Positions 32,609-48,429 of a stretch of DNA of 64,000 bases are shown here, in pieces. Under the pieces are notes generated by a model. The model saw only the letters and a list, made by a program, of their open reading frames with translations. It did not search any database and had not been told where the DNA came from. Made by a program: the position numbers and the translations under genes. How positions within the stretch are numbered: the stretch's first letter is position 1; every line of letters starts with the position of its first letter. The DNA is from a virus (taxonomy: Duplodnaviria > Heunggongvirae > Uroviricota > Caudoviricetes): the IMG/VR virus record IMGVR_UViG_3300032167_000010; one strand, 5' to 3'.

Positions 32609-32722
32609 AGAGCCAATGCTTATTTCTTTAGCCTTTTAAGCCGTGTGTCGTAGGTTCGAATCCTACCGTCAGCCTTCGGGTGGCGTAGCTCAGCGGTAGA
32701 GCAACGTAAATATAGCTTGGCC
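32609..32722 (+). ncRNA. Bulged-helix ncRNA copy 2 carrying a circularly permuted tRNA-Lys(UUU)-like domain (YrlA-like)
   Basis: Order is anticodon loop CTTTTAA, T arm, acceptor 3' strand, TTCG loop, acceptor 5' strand, D arm; closed by GCCAA/TTGGC. Confidence 0.85.
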
Positions 32723-32728
32723 AAAAAT

Positions 32729-32816
32729 CGGGGTGTGCTGAAACTGGCGAGACAGGGTGGACTTAAAATCCACTACATTAGAAACGTTGGTGGTTCGAAT
32801 CCACTCACCCCGACCA
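32729..32816 (+). tRNA. trnL: tRNA-Leu(TAA)
   Basis: Cloverleaf, GTGGA-CTTAAAA-TCCAC, long variable arm, CCA. Confidence 0.92.
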
Positions 32817-35263: not shown

Positions 35264-35339
35264 AGGGGTGTCGTATAGTTGGTTAGTACACAAGACTTTG
35301 ACTCTTGCAGGGTTAGTTCGAGTCTAGCCGCCCCTGCCA
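35264..35339 (+). tRNA. trnQ: tRNA-Gln(TTG)
   Basis: CAAGA-CTTTGAC-TCTTG, GCCA. Confidence 0.9.
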
Positions 35340-35428: not shown

Positions 35429-35549
35429 CACGACTTAGTTCATAGGTAAGAGCACCCAAATCCCAGGGAAGAGAGAAGCGTTGAAGCTGATTACTAGCTA
35501 GAATTGGCAGAGCTGAAGAGGAGCATCGTCGTAGGTGCAGTCGTGTCAA
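35429..35549 (+). ncRNA. Free-standing ~120-nt tRNA-like RNA, paralogue of the tRNA-Thr insert
   Basis: CACGACT/AGTCGTG acceptor-like stem, D arm, CCC-AAATCCCA-GGG hairpin, T-like arm. Confidence 0.7.
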
Positions 35550-35618
35550 TTATTAAATTAATAATTTATTAAAAAATTATTAGCTAAATTAATTAGATAA
35601 AGTTAAGGAGTATATAAC

Positions 35619-35714
35619 ATGAAAAAGATTATTTTTGCCAAAACATTAAAAAATAACAATAGTAGTGTTATGCCATTTTATCGTAAAGCCAGAGACCCAG
35701 TATTCCAGTGTTAA
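35619..35714 (+). CDS. Putative 31-aa peptide MKKIIFAKTLKNNNSSVMPFYRKARDPVFQC
   Basis: AAGGAG RBS, downstream of a GCTAAATTA motif. Confidence 0.4.
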   Translation: MKKIIFAKTLKNNNSSVMPFYRKARDPVFQC

Positions 35715-35825
35715 GAATTTTTATAGTAGATAAAGTATCTTAGCGCTTGGGATTATAAAAAATTCTGAGCGCTTTTTATTTTTATTATTAAAATTTACAT
35801 GAGAGTATTGTATAATATATTATAA

Positions 35826-35959
35826 GCGCCTGTAGCTCAGTTGGCAGAGCACGTGACTTGTTTGAGTAGCATAAGTAATGCGATATTATGTGAGTTCAAA
35901 TCTTACCTCAAGCACCATTAATCACGGTGTCCCGAGTTCGAATCTCGGCAGGCGCACCA
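35826..35959 (+). tRNA. trnK: tRNA-Lys(TTT) interrupted at 34/35 by a 58-nt mini-tRNA (35860-35917)
   Basis: Exons of 34 nt and 42 nt give 76 nt with CGTGA-CTT|TTAA-TCACG. Confidence 0.9.
35860..35917 (+). ncRNA. Anticodon-arm-less mini-tRNA nested in tRNA-Lys
   Basis: GTTTGAG/CTCAAGC stem, D arm GCAT-AAGTA-ATGC, T arm GTGAG-TTCAAAT-CTTAC, ACCA. Confidence 0.88.
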
Positions 35960-36209
35960 AAGAGGGCTATTTCCAAGCCCTGCTGGTTTGCTCGGCCGTT
36001 ATTGGTATTTAATGGAAATAAGTATTAATAGATAAAGTACGATAATCTTTATCCCTGGTTATGCAGGTTAATATAGAGGTAAGCGAGTGGTTTCCTGCGC
36101 ATTCCTACATATCAAATTCGGCGAGGAGATGGTTTGGTTTCTACTAACCAAATAACTTAGTAGACTATCTAGAGTAATATTCCGGGGATAGTTAAATAGT
36201 AGAATATAT

Positions 36210-36318
36210 GTGAGAGTAGCCAAGTAGTAAGGCCACCCGACGGGGTTACAAAGTGAGGTGCAAGTCCCACTGAAAGCATAGGGCGTACGGATCGTTGGTG
36301 CAAATCCAACCTCTCACA
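36210..36318 (+). ncRNA. tRNA-like RNA with two T-loop hairpins and no CCA
   Basis: GTGAGAG/CTCTCAC stem, D arm, TGCAAGT and TGCAAAT loops. Confidence 0.6.
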
Positions 36319-36625: not shown

Positions 36626-36883
36626 GTTGAGTTCGGATATAGCGAACTTTTGAAATGCTTAAGCATACTAGTAAATACTTAATCAAAGTAAATTTAGTAG
36701 TGGAATGTAATGTGGAAAAAGCTTTGACTCCGATACCATTTCACTCAACACCATTCAGTTCTGGGGTAAGTTAGTTGAACCGGTTATACTAACAACCATA
36801 TGTGCGTAGAATATGGATTTAACCTGACAGGCGGATATTCCTGTAGATGCAGAAAGGCTGCGAACTGAGACCATTTTAATTAC

Positions 36884-37000
36884 ATGTCAGTGGCGGAAAA
36901 ATCCTGCAGACCAAAGACAGTAGGTGGATAGACGTAACCCTGTTAAGGGTGAAGAGTCTTGCAAGCTCTTATAAAGGTTCAAATCCTTTCTGACATACCA
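36884..37000 (+). ncRNA. Atypical type-II tRNA-like RNA with D-loop insertion and 6-nt anticodon loop
   Basis: ATGTCAG/CTGACAT-ACCA, T arm AAAGG-TTCAAAT-CCTTT, ACCC-TGTTAA-GGGT. Confidence 0.7.
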
Positions 37001-41127: not shown

Positions 41128-41322
41128 GCTTCAGTAGCTCAACTGGCAGAGCAGCTGACTTCGTCGATTAGTTTAATTGGGAAAACAACCGAATCCCAGG
41201 TAAAAGACAACCTTTGATAACAATTACGATCAAATTGTTTAGGTTAAGATAAACAAGTTCAAATCTTGTATCGGCGTCCAGTAATCAGCAGGTTGATGGT
41301 TCAATTCCGTTCTGAAGCTCCA
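41128..41322 (+). tRNA. trnT: tRNA-Thr(TGT) interrupted at 34/35 by a 119-nt tRNA-like RNA (41162-41280)
   Basis: Exons of 34 nt and 42 nt give 76 nt with GCTGA-CTT|GTAA-TCAGC; acceptor GCTTCAG/CTGAAGC-TCCA. Confidence 0.9.
41162..41280 (+). ncRNA. tRNA-like RNA nested in tRNA-Thr
   Basis: CGTCGAT/ATCGGCG-TCCA, D arm GTTT..AAAC, T arm ACAAG-TTCAAAT-CTTGT. Confidence 0.87.
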
Positions 41323-44874: not shown

Positions 44875-44919
44875 ATATTGTATTATATAATATAAAAATA
44901 ATTATTGAGGTTAAATAAT

Positions 44920-46341
44920 ATGAGTTATTATGCTATTGTAACTGCTTTAAAAAACGTGCGTAAGCACCCTAATGCAGACAGACTTCAACTTGCCTCAGTA
45001 TTTGGTAATACTATTTGTGTTGACTTAACTTATACTGATGGCCAACTTGGTGTATATTTTCCAACAGGTGGACAGCTTTCAGTAGCTTTTGCTGAGGCAA
45101 ATAACTTGCTTCGTAAAAAAGATGCCGAAGGAAATAATATCGGTGGATATATGGACCCAGATAAAAGAAATGTAGCGGCTATTAAACTAAGAGGTGAGAA
45201 GTCTGATGGGCTTTTCCTTCCTTTGAATAGTCTCGAAACTTTTGGTGATATTTCTACTTTGAAGGCTGGCGACCGAATCGACGTGTTTAATGGTACAGAG
45301 ATTTGCACCAAGTACATACCTAAAATTAATATTAGACGTGGCAGTTTTTCTGAAGGAAATCGTACTAGAAAAACTAAGGCGCCTATTGCTCCTTTATTTG
45401 CAGAACACGCAGACACTGAACAGCTTGCCTATAACTTGGGTATGTTTAAGGTCGGTGATGAATTAGAGTTTACTCTAAAAATGCACGGGACTTCTCAACG
45501 TACCGGTCATCTTAAAGTTTTGACTGGTTATAAGAGAACTTTTTTTGATAAGCTTTTTAAAAGACCTGGCACACCTATTTATGATTGGGGCTATGTTTCT
45601 GGTACCCGTCGTGTAGTTCTTGATACTTTTGATGGTGGTTTCTACGGCTCAAATGAATTCAGAGAACAACATCATAATGCTTTTGTTGGAAAGCTTTGGA
45701 AGGGTGAAACTGTTTATTACGAAGTAGTTGGTTTTACTCATACTGGTGCGCCTATTATGGGTAATGGTAATAACGAAAAACTTGGTAAAGACTTTGTAAA
45801 GCAGTATGGTAAAGAAACTGTATTTAGCTACGGCTGTAATCCAACTGGTGAGTGCATTATGTGTGGTGAAGATGAACTTAGCGCTTTTAAAGTTCCAGTT
45901 GATGTTCCAATATCAGATACTTATGTTTACCGTATGACAATGACTAATGAAGATGGTGAAATTGTTGAGTATACGCCAGACTTTATAAGGTATCGTTGTG
46001 AACAAATGGGCGTTAAATGTGTTCCTGTTTTCGGTAAAGCTACAATTAGTGAAGATAGACTACATTTTGTAACACAAGACGGTTATGACCATGACTATTT
46101 AATTGGTGACGGTACTATTGGTGATATGGTAGTAAAGTGTGCTGAAGACTTTTATGCTGGACCTGACCCTGTGGGTAAGACACACACTAGAGAAGGTGTT
46201 GTTGTTCGTATTACTAATAGACCTAAATTCGCAGCAGTAAAACATAAAAACTTTGAATTTAAGGTCTTAGAAGGTATCATTTCTGAAAAGCTTACAGAAT
46301 CAACCACAGAAATAGCAGAAGATGTTCTTGCGGAAATGTAA
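44920..46341 (+). CDS. ATP-dependent RNA ligase (DRB0094/Rnl2-like) with N-terminal OB-fold tRNA-binding-like domain
   Basis: N-terminal HPNADRL..IKLRGEKSDG; nucleotidyltransferase motifs TLKMHGTS, YYEVVG, REGVVVR, KHKNFEF. Confidence 0.85.
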   Translation: MSYYAIVTALKNVRKHPNADRLQLASVFGNTICVDLTYTDGQLGVYFPTGGQLSVAFAEANNLLRKKDAEGNNIGGYMDPDKRNVAAIKLRGEKSDGLFLPLNSLETFGDISTLKAGDRIDVFNGTEICTKYIPKINIRRGSFSEGNRTRKTKAPIAPLFAEHADTEQLAYNLGMFKVGDELEFTLKMHGTSQRTGHLKVLTGYKRTFFDKLFKRPGTPIYDWGYVSGTRRVVLDTFDGGFYGSNEFREQHHNAFVGKLWKGETVYYEVVGFTHTGAPIMGNGNNEKLGKDFVKQYGKETVFSYGCNPTGECIMCGEDELSAFKVPVDVPISDTYVYRMTMTNEDGEIVEYTPDFIRYRCEQMGVKCVPVFGKATISEDRLHFVTQDGYDHDYLIGDGTIGDMVVKCAEDFYAGPDPVGKTHTREGVVVRITNRPKFAAVKHKNFEFKVLEGIISEKLTESTTEIAEDVLAEM

Positions 46342-46353
46342 TAAGAGGTTTAT

Positions 46354-46605
46354 ATGAGCAAAAATACTAATAGTACAAATGGTGGAATTGGAGTAAGTAT
46401 GGTGTTATTTTTAATTTTTTTAGTTTTGAAACTTGTTGGGGTTATTAATTGGTCATGGTGGTGGGTGACTTCTCCACTTTGGATTACTACTAGTATCATA
46501 AGTTTAGTAATCGTAGTAGCATATATTTATTGTTGTATTGATGATGCTAAAGAAAGGCGCAGAATCAACAAATCAAGACGAGGTAATAAGAATGAAAAAG
46601 ACTAA
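46354..46605 (+). CDS. Small membrane protein
   Basis: LVLKLVGVINWSWWWVTSPLWI; two transmembrane segments. Confidence 0.7.
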   Translation: MSKNTNSTNGGIGVSMVLFLIFLVLKLVGVINWSWWWVTSPLWITTSIISLVIVVAYIYCCIDDAKERRRINKSRRGNKNEKD

Positions 46606-47401
46606 AGATTCACTTGGCGATCGCATGAAGGAGTTTTATGAGAATCGTTCTAAGATGTACCTCACAAGACGAACTCCTGTAATTATTCGTTTAGATGGTA
46701 AGGCTTTTCACAGCTTTACAAAAGGTTTTAAGAGACCTTACGATGAAATCTTCCATGAAGCAATGAATAACACAATGAAGTATCTTTGTGCTAATATTCA
46801 GGGTTGTAAACTTGGTTATACGCAGTCTGACGAGATTACACTTCTCTTGACTGACTATACTACTCTTACAACTGATGCTTGGTTTGGTTATGGCGTTCAG
46901 AAAATGTGCTCTATTGCAGCTTCGATGGCGACTTTAATGTTTAATAAGTATTTTAGAACTGCCGTTAATCGCCACTTTGAGGGCGCTATTGGCATGGATG
47001 ACTACCACAAGACCATGTGCCTAGCTCGTGATAAAGGCGCAATGTTTGATGCCCGTTGTTTTAATATTCCAAAAGAAGAAGTAACTAACTGCTTTATTTG
47101 GAGGCAGCAAGACGCAACTCGAAATGCTATTCAAATGTTAGGTCAAACTCATTTTTCTCATAGAGAATTACAAGGTAAAAGTTGCAATGATATTCAAGAC
47201 ATGTTGATGTTGCAAAAAGGTATTAATTTTAACGATATGCCTATTGAATTCAAGCGTGGTGTTTGTTGCATTAAAAAAGAAGTTGAATGCACTGATAGAC
47301 TTATAGGTTATAAGCATGATTGGGTAATAGATACAGAGATTCCAATTTTTACTCAGGATAGAAATTATATTGAACAATATTTACTAGAAAAAGAAATCTA
47401 A
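46592..47401 (+). CDS. thg1: tRNA(His) guanylyltransferase Thg1-like protein (3'-5' polymerase)
   Basis: GDRMKEFYE, IRLDGKAFH, YTQSDEI, FDARCF and WRQQDATRN motifs. Confidence 0.9.
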   Translation: MKKTKDSLGDRMKEFYENRSKMYLTRRTPVIIRLDGKAFHSFTKGFKRPYDEIFHEAMNNTMKYLCANIQGCKLGYTQSDEITLLLTDYTTLTTDAWFGYGVQKMCSIAASMATLMFNKYFRTAVNRHFEGAIGMDDYHKTMCLARDKGAMFDARCFNIPKEEVTNCFIWRQQDATRNAIQMLGQTHFSHRELQGKSCNDIQDMLMLQKGINFNDMPIEFKRGVCCIKKEVECTDRLIGYKHDWVIDTEIPIFTQDRNYIEQYLLEKEI

Positions 47402-47712: not shown

Positions 47713-48429
47713 ATGGTATATATTACAGGAGATATTCACGGTAATCCATCAGAAATTATTTACATGGCTCAGCGCTGGGGAATAACTAAAGATGATATTA
47801 TAGTGCTTCTTGGTGACGTTGGAGCGAACTATTATCTTAATAAAAAAGATAATAGAACAAAAGAAGCTTTAAGTAAATATATTGATGCTACCATTCTTTG
47901 TATCCATGGTAATCACGAAGCGCGTCCTGCGATGATTGGGGGATATGAGCTTATGGATTGGAATGGTGGACAAGTATATGTTCAACCAGAGTATCCCAAC
48001 CTGCTCTTCGCTCATGATGGATCCATCTTTAATTTAGAGGGCTTGAGTTGTCTAGTGCTTGGCGGAGCGTACAGTGTAGATAAGTATTATCGTCTTAAAG
48101 AAGGCTATGCCTGGTTTTTTGATGAACAACCATGTAAAGGTATTAAACTTTACGCAGAGCGCCAAATTGCGGAAGCGGGCAATAAAGTAGATGTTGTATT
48201 TTCACACACCTGTCCATTTAAATATGAGCCTATTGAGGTATTTTTACCAGGCATTGATCAATCTACTGTTGATGACAGCACTGAAAAATGGCTTGATGAA
48301 ATCGAAAATAAACTTGATTATAAAGCCTGGTACTGTGGACATTGGCATATAAACAAACGTATAGATAAAATGCACTTTTTATTTAATACGGTTGAAATAT
48401 TAGATGATATTAAAGATAAAGGAAATTAA
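47713..48429 (+). CDS. Calcineurin-like metallophosphoesterase
   Basis: GDIHG, GDVG, GNHE, FSHT and GHWH motifs. Confidence 0.88.
   Translation: MVYITGDIHGNPSEIIYMAQRWGITKDDIIVLLGDVGANYYLNKKDNRTKEALSKYIDATILCIHGNHEARPAMIGGYELMDWNGGQVYVQPEYPNLLFAHDGSIFNLEGLSCLVLGGAYSVDKYYRLKEGYAWFFDEQPCKGIKLYAERQIAEAGNKVDVVFSHTCPFKYEPIEVFLPGIDQSTVDDSTEKWLDEIENKLDYKAWYCGHWHINKRIDKMHFLFNTVEILDDIKDKGN

What the first reader, a model, noticed from the sequence alone, without database searches (positions are those of the whole stretch)
35826..35959. tRNA inside a tRNA: a 58-nt mini-tRNA interrupts tRNA-Lys(UUU) exactly between U34 and U35
Seen: 5' exon 35826-35859 (34 nt, ends CGTGA-CTT) and 3' exon 35918-35959 (42 nt, TTAA-TCACG...ACCA) join into a canonical 76-nt tRNA-Lys. 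The insert is itself an acceptor stem, D arm, T arm and ACCA with no anticodon arm, running precisely from its +1 to its CCA. Established: bacterial tRNA introns are group I ribozymes, archaeal ones use BHB motifs, and tRNA-Lys(UUU) is the target of PrrC and PARIS AriB. Inference: this is a new intron class, excised by tRNA-processing nucleases (RNase P at the insert 5' end, a 3' endonuclease after CCA), leaving 3'-OH and 5'-P exons. It is the only CCA-ended Lys tRNA gene in the window, although AAA codons are abundant.
Basis: partly seen in the sequence, partly recalled or inferred. Interest (0 to 1): 0.96.

Follow-up and report, generated by a model that had tools for sequence, protein, structure and literature searches.

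The report
tRNA-shaped intron inside phage tRNA-Lys
The only lysine-tRNA gene of this large gut phage is split inside its anticodon by a 58-base miniature tRNA, whose ends match normal tRNA ends, so ordinary tRNA-trimming enzymes probably cut it out and a phage RNA ligase rejoins the halves; this splicing route has not been shown by experiment.

Summary
Exons 35826-35859 and 35918-35959 join into a canonical 76-nt tRNA-Lys(UUU). The 58-nt insert (35860-35917) passes Rfam's tRNA threshold and lacks only the anticodon arm. An independent metagenome run carries the same DNA.

It is not a one-off. The window holds a second case (tRNA-Thr(UGU), 41128-41322), and I found about 15 distinct cases in related phages.
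- All 15 inserts have a 7-bp acceptor stem stacked on a 5-bp/7-nt T arm.
- All end exactly 4 nt after the acceptor stem, with NCCA in 14 of 15.
- 14 of 15 follow a U.
- The ordinary tRNA genes of these phages share both flank signatures: U(-1) in 121 of 139 and an encoded CCA in 129 of 139. Together these features are the known bacterial RNase P determinants.

Relatives carry uninterrupted alleles. The same intron family sits in tRNA-Gln in the closest relatives, so the element is mobile. An Rnl5-type ligase that seals 3'-OH/5'-P ends lies 9 kb downstream.

No RNA evidence could be obtained, and the nuclease that cuts after CCA is unidentified.

Devoto et al. 2019 noted tRNA-like introns in Lak megaphages without proposing a mechanism. 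This scan has flagged the same design before in at least 21 other genomes. Verdict: a real, probably functional intron, and a new variant of a barely described kind.

The parts
35788..35823 (+). Promoter-like sites directly upstream of the split gene
   Evidence: TTAAAA-17-TATAAT and TTTACA-16/18 variants score 10 of 12. This is a consensus match only.
35742..35783 (+). Terminator-like hairpin plus T run that ends the upstream unit, so the split gene looks like its own transcription unit
   Evidence: 13-pair stem followed by a T-rich tail.
35826..35859 (+). 5' exon of tRNA-Lys(UUU), positions 1-34, ending C32 U33 U34
   Evidence: The D arm and anticodon arm are identical to uninterrupted tRNA-Lys genes in L057, L058 and L072-L077.
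35860..35917 (+). Intron: a 58-nt mini-tRNA with a 7-bp acceptor stem, a 4-bp D hairpin, an 8-nt linker, a 5-bp T stem with a TTCAAAT loop, discriminator A and CCA. It has no anticodon arm.
   Evidence: Rfam tRNA 34.6 bits against a gathering score of 29. Fold. Anatomy table.
35918..35959 (+). 3' exon of tRNA-Lys(UUU), positions 35-76: U35 U36 A37 A38, anticodon-stem 3' strand, variable loop, T arm, acceptor 3' strand, ACCA
41128..41161 (+). 5' exon of the second split gene, tRNA-Thr(UGU), ending CTT
   Evidence: The best uninterrupted match is a tRNA-Thr(UGU) with U73.
41162..41280 (+). Second intron: a 119-nt tRNA-like RNA with a 7-bp acceptor stem, a T arm with a TTCAAAT loop, discriminator U and CCA
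   Evidence: Rfam tRNA 32.4 bits against a gathering score of 29..
41281..41322 (+). 3' exon of tRNA-Thr(UGU), starting GTAA
44905..46341 (+). ATP-dependent RNA ligase of Rnl5 (Naegleria gruberi RNA ligase) type with an N-terminal OB domain; the proposed exon-sealing enzyme
   Evidence: PHROG 968 'RNA ligase', E = 6e-61. Invariant motifs KMHG (K192), EGVVVR and KHK. The AlphaFold model matches NgrRnl at E = 2e-14 and T4 Rnl2 at 3e-6. Assigning it to splicing is inference.
46538..47401 (+). Thg1-like 3'-5' nucleotidyltransferase; a neighbouring RNA-repair gene with no shown role in splicing
   Evidence: Pfam Thg1, E = 2.4e-31. It lies within 10 kb of the ligase in 27 of 45 related loci.
47713..48429 (+). 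Metallophosphoesterase; a possible RNA end-healing enzyme with no shown role in splicing
   Evidence: Pfam Metallophos, E = 7.5e-13. It lies near the ligase in 17 of 45 related loci.
35264..35339 (+). Uninterrupted tRNA-Gln(UUG). This is the isoacceptor that carries the homologous intron in the closest relatives.

Best explanation
This is a functional split tRNA-Lys(UUU) gene. Its intron is a mobile miniature tRNA, and its splice sites are the intron's own mature tRNA ends.

Proposed pathway:
1. The precursor folds into two nested tRNA shapes.
2. Host RNase P recognises the inner acceptor/T-arm minihelix with its ACCA tail and cuts between U34 and the intron's G+1. This leaves the 5' exon with a 3'-OH.
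3. An endonuclease that makes mature CCA ends cuts just after the intron's CCA. The enzyme is not identified; candidates are an RNase Z that tolerates CCA, RNase E, or an unrecognised phage protein. This leaves the 3' exon with a 5'-phosphate.
4. The two exons stay paired through the acceptor and anticodon stems. The phage Rnl5-type ATP-dependent ligase seals the nick in the anticodon loop and yields tRNA-Lys(UUU).
5. The released 58-nt CCA-ended mini-tRNA may have a role of its own.

Shown here: the anatomy, its recurrence, exon integrity, mobility, and the presence and type of the ligase. Inferred: every enzymatic step.
For: 1. Splice sites equal tRNA ends. With the tail length left free from 0 to 15 nt, validated inserts end exactly 4 nt (N73 plus three bases) after the acceptor stem, 24 times. 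The 12 other hits, 9 of them at tail length 6, are re-parses of the same loci. The last three bases are CCA in 20 of 26 validated hits and never any of 61 other triplets.

2. RNase P determinants are all present. All 15 distinct introns have a 5-bp stem with a 7-nt loop abutting the 3' acceptor strand. The scan did not require this, and the null probability is 0.011 each. U(-1) occurs in 14 of 15, G(+1) in 12 of 15 and A73 in 14 of 15. PMC10731613 names the 12-bp stack, T loop, 3' RCCA and U(-1)/G(+1) as the bacterial RNase P optimum.

3. The same flank signatures mark ordinary tRNA genes of these phages. In the window, U(-1) occurs in 22 of 24 genes and an encoded CCA in 24 of 24. Over the related loci the figures are 121 of 139 and 129 of 139.

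4. The gene is needed. No other Lys tRNA exists in the window. AAA is the second most frequent codon at 48.8 per 1000.

5. The exons are intact.
- A 57-nt core is identical to uninterrupted tRNA-Lys genes in nine metagenome contigs.
- The acceptor stem differs from those genes by four fully compensated pair changes split across the two exons.
- It differs from the phage allele L058 by two further compensated pair changes.

6. Empty and filled alleles both exist.
- L057 and L058 have uninterrupted Lys genes.
- G003 and G004 have a filled tRNA-Gln(UUG), and G002 carries the same intron.
- G001 has an uninterrupted Gln at the same syntenic slot as G003 and G004.

7. The ligase chemistry fits. The model matches the nick-sealing ligase NgrRnl at E = 2e-14 and the catalytic motifs are intact. 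By established knowledge, RNase P, RNase Z and RNase E all leave 3'-OH/5'-P ends. Precedents for a cut just after CCA are T. maritima RNase Z and E. coli RNase E (PMC7479834).

8. The precursor's minimum-energy fold is the nested structure.
Against: - There is no RNA evidence of any kind.
- The enzyme for the cut after CCA is unidentified. Most RNase Z enzymes are inhibited by CCA, and no Lactamase_B_2 gene was found in the near-complete relative G003 or in G001.
- The ligase link rests on proximity (9 kb) and chemistry only. All related loci were found through the ligase, so co-occurrence was not tested without bias.
- Exon integrity would also be seen if the insertion were very recent.
- My validation step demands an intact tRNA, so decayed alleles would have been missed.
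- The Lak megaphage introns carry a leader of about 30 nt before their tRNA-like part. RNase P alone cannot explain those.
Confidence: 0.55

Rival explanations
1. A selfish mobile tRNA-like element has inserted into the tRNA-Lys gene and inactivated it. No mature tRNA is made, and the phage relies on host tRNA-Lys.
For: The element is mobile. The same acceptor/T-arm module (26 of 28 nt at the 3' end) sits in tRNA-Gln in the closest relatives and in tRNA-Lys here. Alleles are polymorphic for presence and absence. No RNA evidence for splicing exists.
Against: - It is the sole Lys gene, and AAA is the second most frequent codon.
- All 15 filled alleles, from diverged lineages, keep a perfect 7-nt loop and full stems after removal.
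- Acceptor changes are compensated across the two exons.
- The boundaries are exact in every case.
- In G003 and in the window, each filled gene is the only copy of its isoacceptor.
Confidence: 0.15
2. It is a true intron, but a dedicated endonuclease from the phage or host cuts it out and leaves 2',3'-cyclic phosphate and 5'-OH ends, as anticodon nucleases and archaeal EndA do. A phosphoesterase and a kinase then heal the ends before ligation, as in T4 Pnkp/Rnl1 repair.
For: A metallophosphoesterase and a Thg1-like repair enzyme lie next to the ligase, and they recur near it in relatives. The 34/35 site is one used by known anticodon nucleases (my own knowledge).
Against: - No polynucleotide kinase was recognised among the neighbouring ORFs.
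- There is no bulge-helix-bulge motif.
- This model does not explain the exact +1-to-CCA boundaries, the U(-1) rule or the invariant acceptor/T stack.
Confidence: 0.13
3. The transcript is not spliced. It is processed into a free CCA-ended mini-tRNA plus two tRNA-Lys halves, or it persists as a chimera. These RNAs act as decoys or regulators, for example against defence nucleases that target tRNA-Lys.
For: The same array holds free-standing tRNA-like genes at 35429-35549 and 36883-36999, and a YrlA-like element. So the phage uses non-decoding tRNA mimics.
Against: The phage would then lack Lys(UUU) and Thr(UGU) decoding, which relatives keep uninterrupted. Restoration of a canonical 7-nt loop in 15 of 15 cases would have no reason.
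Confidence: 0.1
4. The insert is an assembly or chimera artefact.
For: None found.
Against: An independent run from another study holds 35829-35965 without a difference. Five further runs hold all sampled words. The same design recurs in many contigs from other samples.
Confidence: 0.01

Closest known systems
'Enigmatic' tRNA introns of Lak megaphages (Devoto et al. 2019, Nat Microbiol 4:693, PMC6784885; Fig. 4 and Table S6)
   Same: Both are phage tRNA genes interrupted in the anticodon loop by a non-ribozyme insert that contains a tRNA-like unit with acceptor stem, D arm and T arm. tRNA-Thr(UGU) is among the hosts. Alleles with and without the intron exist. No mechanism is known. As I read Table S6, with the one-base offset the authors report, the Lak 3' splice site also coincides with the inner tRNA's 3' processing site.
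   Different: Lak introns carry a hairpin leader of about 30 nt before the tRNA-like part. They sit after the anticodon and end at the discriminator without CCA, and Lak tRNA genes do not encode CCA. Here the intron is nothing but the mini-tRNA, from +1 to CCA, placed inside the anticodon, in phages whose tRNA genes almost all encode CCA.
Group I self-splicing introns in bacterial and phage tRNA anticodon loops, for example cyanobacterial tRNA-Leu(UAA) (my own knowledge)
   Same: Both interrupt a bacterial-type tRNA in the anticodon loop, often at 34/35 and after a U. Both are mobile, with filled and empty alleles.
   Different: Group I introns are ribozymes of 200 nt or more that end in G. 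This insert has 58 nt, ends in CCA, has no P1-P9 core, and gives no Rfam intron match.
Protein-spliced introns and split tRNAs of archaea and eukaryotes (bulge-helix-bulge motif, EndA/TSEN endonuclease, RtcB or Trl1 ligase)
   Same: Both use cut-and-ligate splicing of a tRNA by proteins, leaving an RNA too small to splice itself. The exon halves are held together by the tRNA body.
   Different: There is no bulge-helix-bulge motif. The inferred ends are 3'-OH/5'-P rather than cyclic phosphate/5'-OH. The ligase is ATP-dependent and of Rnl5 type, not RtcB.
T4 Pnkp/Rnl1 repair of tRNA-Lys cleaved by PrrC (my own knowledge)
   Same: A phage ligase reseals a break in the anticodon loop of tRNA-Lys(UUU).
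   Different: In T4 the break is host-inflicted damage at 33/34 with cyclic phosphate/5'-OH ends, and a kinase-phosphatase is needed. Here the break would be programmed in the gene and made by processing enzymes.
tRNA-like elements used as processing signals: mitochondrial tRNA punctuation and the MALAT1 mascRNA, cut by RNase P and RNase Z (my own knowledge)
   Same: A tRNA-shaped unit recruits RNase P and a 3' endonuclease to cut a longer transcript at exact sites.
   Different: In those cases the flanking pieces are not rejoined. Here ligation of the flanks would make it an intron.

Membership tests
tRNA (Rfam RF00005), joined exons | Cloverleaf with a 7-bp acceptor stem, D, anticodon and T arms, a 7-nt anticodon loop with U33 and a purine at 37, and a T loop TTCRA | tested here: met
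   ARAGORN calls a tRNA after removal of the insert. All stems are fully paired in the minimum-energy fold. The eight best matches are all tRNA-Lys(UUU).
tRNA (Rfam RF00005), insert | Score at or above the family's gathering score | tested here: met
   34.6 bits against 29, but with the whole anticodon arm deleted. It is therefore tRNA-like and not a decoding tRNA.
Group I intron | Conserved P1-P9 ribozyme core, a terminal G, and a length of at least about 200 nt | tested here: not met
   The insert has 58 nt and ends in A. No Rfam intron family matched even at E up to 10.
Archaeal/eukaryal bulge-helix-bulge intron | Two 3-nt bulges on opposite strands separated by a 4-bp helix, with the splice sites in the bulges | tested here: not met
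   In the minimum-energy fold both splice sites flank the base of one 7-8-bp helix. The single-stranded flanks are 2-3 nt and 7-8 nt.
Bacterial RNase P substrate | 12-bp acceptor/T-stem stack with a 7-nt T loop | tested here: met
   15 of 15 introns, against a null of 0.011 per site. The criterion is taken from PMC10731613.
Bacterial RNase P substrate | 3' RCCA, and U(-1)/G(+1) at the cleavage site | tested here: met
   This intron has ACCA, U(-1) and G(+1). Across the family: CCA in 14 of 15, A73 in 14 of 15, U(-1) in 14 of 15 and G(+1) in 12 of 15.
Bacterial RNase P substrate | Actual cleavage by RNase P at the predicted bond | not testable with these tools
   This needs an in vitro assay or 5'-end mapping.
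Lak-type phage tRNA introns (Devoto et al. 2019) | Non-ribozyme insert in the anticodon loop of a phage tRNA gene that contains a tRNA-like unit, with intron-less alleles in relatives | tested here: met
   compared with the paper's text and Table S6.
Lak-type phage tRNA introns (Devoto et al. 2019) | Sequence homology or the same architecture (5' leader hairpin, no CCA, position after the anticodon) | tested here: not met
   The architecture differs. blastn of the locus against the phage collection found nothing.
ATP-dependent RNA ligase, Rnl5/Rnl2 branch (gene 44905-46341) | Nucleotidyltransferase motifs I (KxxG), IV and V, with an N-terminal OB domain as in NgrRnl | tested here: met
   KMHG, EGVVVR and KHK are invariant in 14 homologues. 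Foldseek matches NgrRnl at E = 2e-14 over both domains. The Pfam hits are below the curated cut-offs.
ATP-dependent RNA ligase, Rnl5/Rnl2 branch | Sealing of the tRNA-Lys anticodon-loop nick | not testable with these tools
   This needs a biochemical assay.

The most novel reading that the evidence does not exclude
Bacteria and their phages have a third way of splicing tRNAs. The intron is a mobile miniature tRNA, and its splice sites are set by the ordinary tRNA end-maturation machinery: RNase P at the 5' site and a CCA-end endonuclease at the 3' site. An Rnl5-type ligase rejoins the exons. The U(-1) rule decides where in the anticodon loop such introns can live.
Probability: 0.5. Interest if true: 0.9.

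Novelty: new variant of a known kind. Interest (0 to 1): 0.8.

Why it matters
Known tRNA introns are either self-splicing ribozymes (bacteria, organelles) or bulge-helix-bulge introns cut by a dedicated endonuclease (archaea, eukaryotes). An intron defined only by looking like a tRNA, and removed by RNase P plus a 3'-end nuclease and a ligase, would be a third mechanism.

It would also:
- give phage RNA ligases a routine role beyond damage repair;
- explain the unexplained Lak megaphage introns;
- show that standard tRNA finders miss or mislabel these genes. Here ARAGORN reports a false tRNA-Leu and no Lys.

The system is small, at 134 nt plus one ligase, and can be tested directly in vitro. 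Because the interrupted tRNAs are those with U34, including tRNA-Lys(UUU), a known target of anticodon nucleases, a link to phage-host conflict is possible. None is shown here.

Tried and rejected
- RNA evidence. No RNA holder was listed for 35800-35990. The one RNA run laid (X21) only showed another organism's intact tRNA-Lys. This says nothing for or against splicing.
- blastn of 35500-36300 against 50,697 phage records found no match.
- The pattern 'T loop - N12 - CCATTAATC' in viral contigs gave 11 hits. All are ordinary tRNAs that happen to be followed by TTAATC.
- The pattern for this intron's 3' half in viral contigs recovered only the three close relatives already known.
- ARAGORN intron mode alone proved unreliable. 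It shifts the boundary by one base, calling Lys as Thr and Thr as Arg, and it merges neighbouring tRNAs.
- Literature. Nine searches found no paper that proposes or tests RNase P/ligase splicing of phage tRNAs. Only Devoto et al. 2019 describes comparable introns.
- Phage-encoded RNase Z. No Lactamase_B_2 match in G003 or G001.
- Polynucleotide kinase or homing endonuclease next to the locus. None was recognised by Pfam or PHROGs, and no sizeable ORF lies beside the Lys gene.
- phmmer of the ligase against PDB sequences gave nothing, and a profile gave only weak hits. The structure search settled its type.
- Ligase-intron co-occurrence was not tested, because all related loci were retrieved through the ligase.

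Full report
**Context.** The window is part of a large uncultivated phage. Almost every ORF is on one strand and GC is about 35%. It encodes giant proteins of 2,239 and 2,500 aa and a topoisomerase II subunit. A tRNA island from about 32.7 to 41.3 kb holds 24 ordinary tRNA genes. Public runs that hold the locus are animal faeces and gut metagenomes.

**The observation.** One search confirms the finding base for base.
- 35826-35859 is the first 34 nt of a tRNA and ends C32 U33 U34.
- 35918-35959 supplies U35 U36 A37 A38 and the rest of the tRNA, up to ACCA.
- After removal of 35860-35917, ARAGORN calls a tRNA.
- ARAGORN places the intron one base to the right, which would give a Thr anticodon. 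However, the eight best matches of the joined exons among all fetched tRNAs are tRNA-Lys(UUU), and uninterrupted homologues read CTTTTAA at that place. The Lys register is therefore correct, and it coincides with the ends of the inner tRNA-like unit.
- The insert passes Rfam's tRNA gathering score (34.6 against 29 bits), with the anticodon arm deleted. It folds as acceptor stem, D hairpin and T arm with a free ACCA tail.
- The whole precursor's minimum-energy fold is two nested cloverleaves.
- An independent run (X7, another study) has a contig that covers 35829-35965 without a difference. The insert is therefore real DNA.

**It is a recurrent design.**
- The window has a second case. tRNA-Thr(UGU) at 41128-41322 is split at the same 34/35 bond by an unrelated 119-nt tRNA-like RNA ending UCCA.
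- I fetched 45 related loci through the nearby RNA ligase, plus others, and scanned 1.09 Mb on both strands. The rule was a perfect 7-bp helix closing 30-199 nt, flanked by a 5-bp stem so that removal leaves a 7-nt loop, followed by ARAGORN validation.
- 26 hits passed. Their last three bases were CCA 20 times and CAA or CAT 6 times. Five of those six are one-base re-parses, and one is a true ACAA variant. None of the other 61 triplets occurred.
- With the tail length left free from 0 to 15 nt, validated inserts end exactly 4 nt after the acceptor stem. Every other hit is a re-parse.
- This gives about 15 distinct introns, in Lys-UUU (4), Gln-UUG (3), Leu-UAA (5), Ile-UAU (2) and Thr-UGU (1).
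- All hosts have U34, against 66 of 138 ordinary tRNAs (Fisher p = 4e-5). The cases are not fully independent.
- The position is mostly 34/35, but 32/33, 35/36 and 36/37 also occur.

**Anatomy points to tRNA end-processing.**
- All 15 introns carry a 5-bp stem with a 7-nt loop directly abutting the 3' acceptor strand. This is the 12-bp acceptor/T stack. The scan did not require it, and the null probability is 0.011 per site.
- The middle part of the intron varies from 12 to 84 nt.
- The base before the intron is U in 14 of 15, the first intron base is G in 12 of 15, and the discriminator is A in 14 of 15.
- A review of bacterial RNase P specificity names this exact set as the optimum: 12-bp stem, T loop, 3' RCCA pairing with L15, and U(-1)/G(+1) (PMC10731613).
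- The ordinary tRNA genes of these phages show the same two flank signatures. In the window, U(-1) occurs in 22 of 24 genes, one exception being the G-1 of tRNA-His, and CCA is encoded in 24 of 24. Over the related loci the figures are 121 of 139 and 129 of 139.
- The U(-1) rule accounts for 14 of the 15 insertion sites, which always follow a U even though the position in the loop varies. Together with the 34/35 preference, it could also explain the bias towards tRNAs with U34.

**The gene looks functional.**
- No other Lys tRNA is in the window. AAA is the second most frequent codon (48.8 per 1000) and ACA is also common (29.8 per 1000).
- Relatives carry uninterrupted Lys(UUU) genes whose D and anticodon arms are identical to these exons (L057, L058).
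- Nine metagenome contigs carry uninterrupted tRNA-Lys genes with a 57-nt core identical to the joined exons. Several look bacterial: contigs of 152 to 508 kb with a Gly-Arg-His-Gln-Lys-Lys operon.
- The acceptor stem differs from those genes by four fully compensated pair changes, whose two halves lie on different exons.
- In each genome examined, the split gene is the only copy of its isoacceptor.
- Caveat: my validation requires an intact tRNA, so decayed alleles would not have been seen.

**The intron is mobile.**
- The 5' 8 nt and the 3' 28 nt (26 of 28 identical) of this intron match a 115-nt intron that splits tRNA-Gln(UUG) at 34/35 in the three closest relatives. One acceptor pair differs between the two by a compensated change.
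- G003 and G004 have an uninterrupted Lys gene, and this window has an uninterrupted Gln(UUG).
- A fourth relative (G001) has an uninterrupted Gln(UUG) at the same syntenic slot, Ile-Gln-Gln-Lys-Leu.
- No homing endonuclease gene lies beside the locus.

**The ligase.**
- 44905-46341 is PHROG 968 'RNA ligase'. Motifs KMHG, EGVVVR and KHK are invariant.
- Its AlphaFold model (pLDDT 71) matches the nick-sealing Naegleria gruberi RNA ligase over both domains at E = 2e-14, and T4 Rnl2 at 3e-6.
- Such enzymes join 3'-OH to 5'-phosphate. By established knowledge, RNase P, RNase Z and RNase E all leave these ends.
- The N-terminal OB domain also resembles Trbp111-type tRNA-binding domains (weaker hits).
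- A Thg1-like enzyme and a metallophosphoesterase follow the ligase and recur near it in relatives. Nothing ties them to splicing.

**The weak step.**
- A cut exactly after CCA is required. Precedents exist: T. maritima RNase Z cuts just downstream of encoded CCA, and E. coli RNase E can make mature CCA ends (PMC7479834). However, most RNase Z enzymes are blocked by CCA.
- No RNase Z-like gene was found in the 95%-complete relative, and the host is unknown.
- One observation is suggestive. In Lak megaphages, whose tRNA genes lack CCA, the published introns end at the inner tRNA's discriminator, which is the RNase Z site. I read this from Table S6 with the one-base offset the authors report. 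The 3' splice site may therefore follow whichever 3' end the phage's own tRNAs use.

**Comparison with what is known.**
- The insert is not a group I intron (58 nt, no ribozyme core) and not a bulge-helix-bulge intron.
- The closest precedent is Devoto et al. 2019. They reported 'enigmatic' introns in Lak phage tRNAs, one of which 'may encode a tRNA', and proposed no mechanism.
- Lak introns differ in three ways: a leader of about 30 nt, no CCA, and a position after the anticodon.
- I found no paper that proposes or tests RNase P/ligase splicing.
- Earlier notes of this scan describe the same design in at least 21 other genomes. I used them only as leads and checked the cited paper myself.

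**Verdict.** This is very probably a real, functional and mobile tRNA-shaped intron whose ends are tRNA ends. RNase P at the 5' site and an Rnl5-type ligase are well-motivated inferences. The 3' nuclease and the splicing itself remain unshown.

Noticed in passing
window 41128-41322: A second split gene. tRNA-Thr(UGU) is interrupted at 34/35 by an unrelated 119-nt tRNA-like RNA ending UCCA (Rfam tRNA 32.4 bits). ARAGORN's intron mode mislabels it as Arg(UCU).
   Followed up: yes
window 35429-35549: A free-standing tRNA-like RNA of about 120 nt with a 7-bp acceptor stem and a tail UCAA instead of CCA. It is conserved in the closest relatives (75% over 173 nt, 92% over 49 nt). It shares an AAUCCCAGG motif with the Thr intron, but blastn found no match between the two.
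   Followed up: partly
window 36883-36999: Another free-standing tRNA-like RNA with a 7-bp acceptor stem, a T arm with loop TTCAAAT and an ACCA tail. Rfam tRNA gives 24.7 bits, below the threshold.
   Followed up: partly
window 32626-32729: A match to the Y RNA-like family YrlA (35.7 bits, below the gathering score of 69), directly upstream of tRNA-Leu(UAA).
   Followed up: no
window 35859-35955: ARAGORN's default call 'tRNA-Leu(CAA), 97 nt' is a mis-parse spanning the intron and the 3' exon. Standard annotation would report a false Leu and no Lys.
   Followed up: yes
window 35620-35715: A small ORF of about 31 aa with a good Shine-Dalgarno sequence (AAGGAG), followed by a strong terminator at 35742-35783, just upstream of the split gene.
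   Followed up: no
window tRNA island; L005-L067: Ordinary tRNA genes of this phage group have T at position -1 in 121 of 139 cases and an encoded CCA in 129 of 139. tRNA-His carries an encoded G-1, even though a Thg1-like gene is present.
   Followed up: partly
L014 2556, L015 2549, L021 2559: A tRNA called with a four-base anticodon 'tttt' (8-nt anticodon loop) sits beside a normal tRNA-Lys(UUU).
   Followed up: no
L006/L007 16441, L015 456, L024 15698, L030 212; L040 10001-11323: ARAGORN calls tRNAs with a CUA anticodon in five related loci. The L015 call lies inside the Ile(UAU) intron (L015 456-532), so it is probably a mis-parse. One relative's ligase gene has an in-frame stop. Together these hint at stop-codon recoding in part of the clade.
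   Followed up: no
L005 17169-17316 (same contig as L057): A tRNA with anticodon UAA (Leu) that lacks the long variable arm is itself split by a 71-nt tRNA-like intron.
   Followed up: no
L071-L079 (metagenome contigs): Uninterrupted tRNA-Lys(UUU) genes have a 57-nt core identical to the window's joined exons. Several sit in bacterial-looking Gly-Arg-His-Gln-Lys-Lys operons on contigs of 152-508 kb. This may hint at the host lineage or at the origin of the gene.
   Followed up: partly
window 44905-45300 (ligase N-terminal domain): The OB domain of the ligase model also matches Trbp111/EMAPII-type tRNA-binding domains (MetRS C-terminal domain, a tRNA-binding protein, PheRS beta subunit) at E of about 1e-3 to 2e-2.
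   Followed up: no
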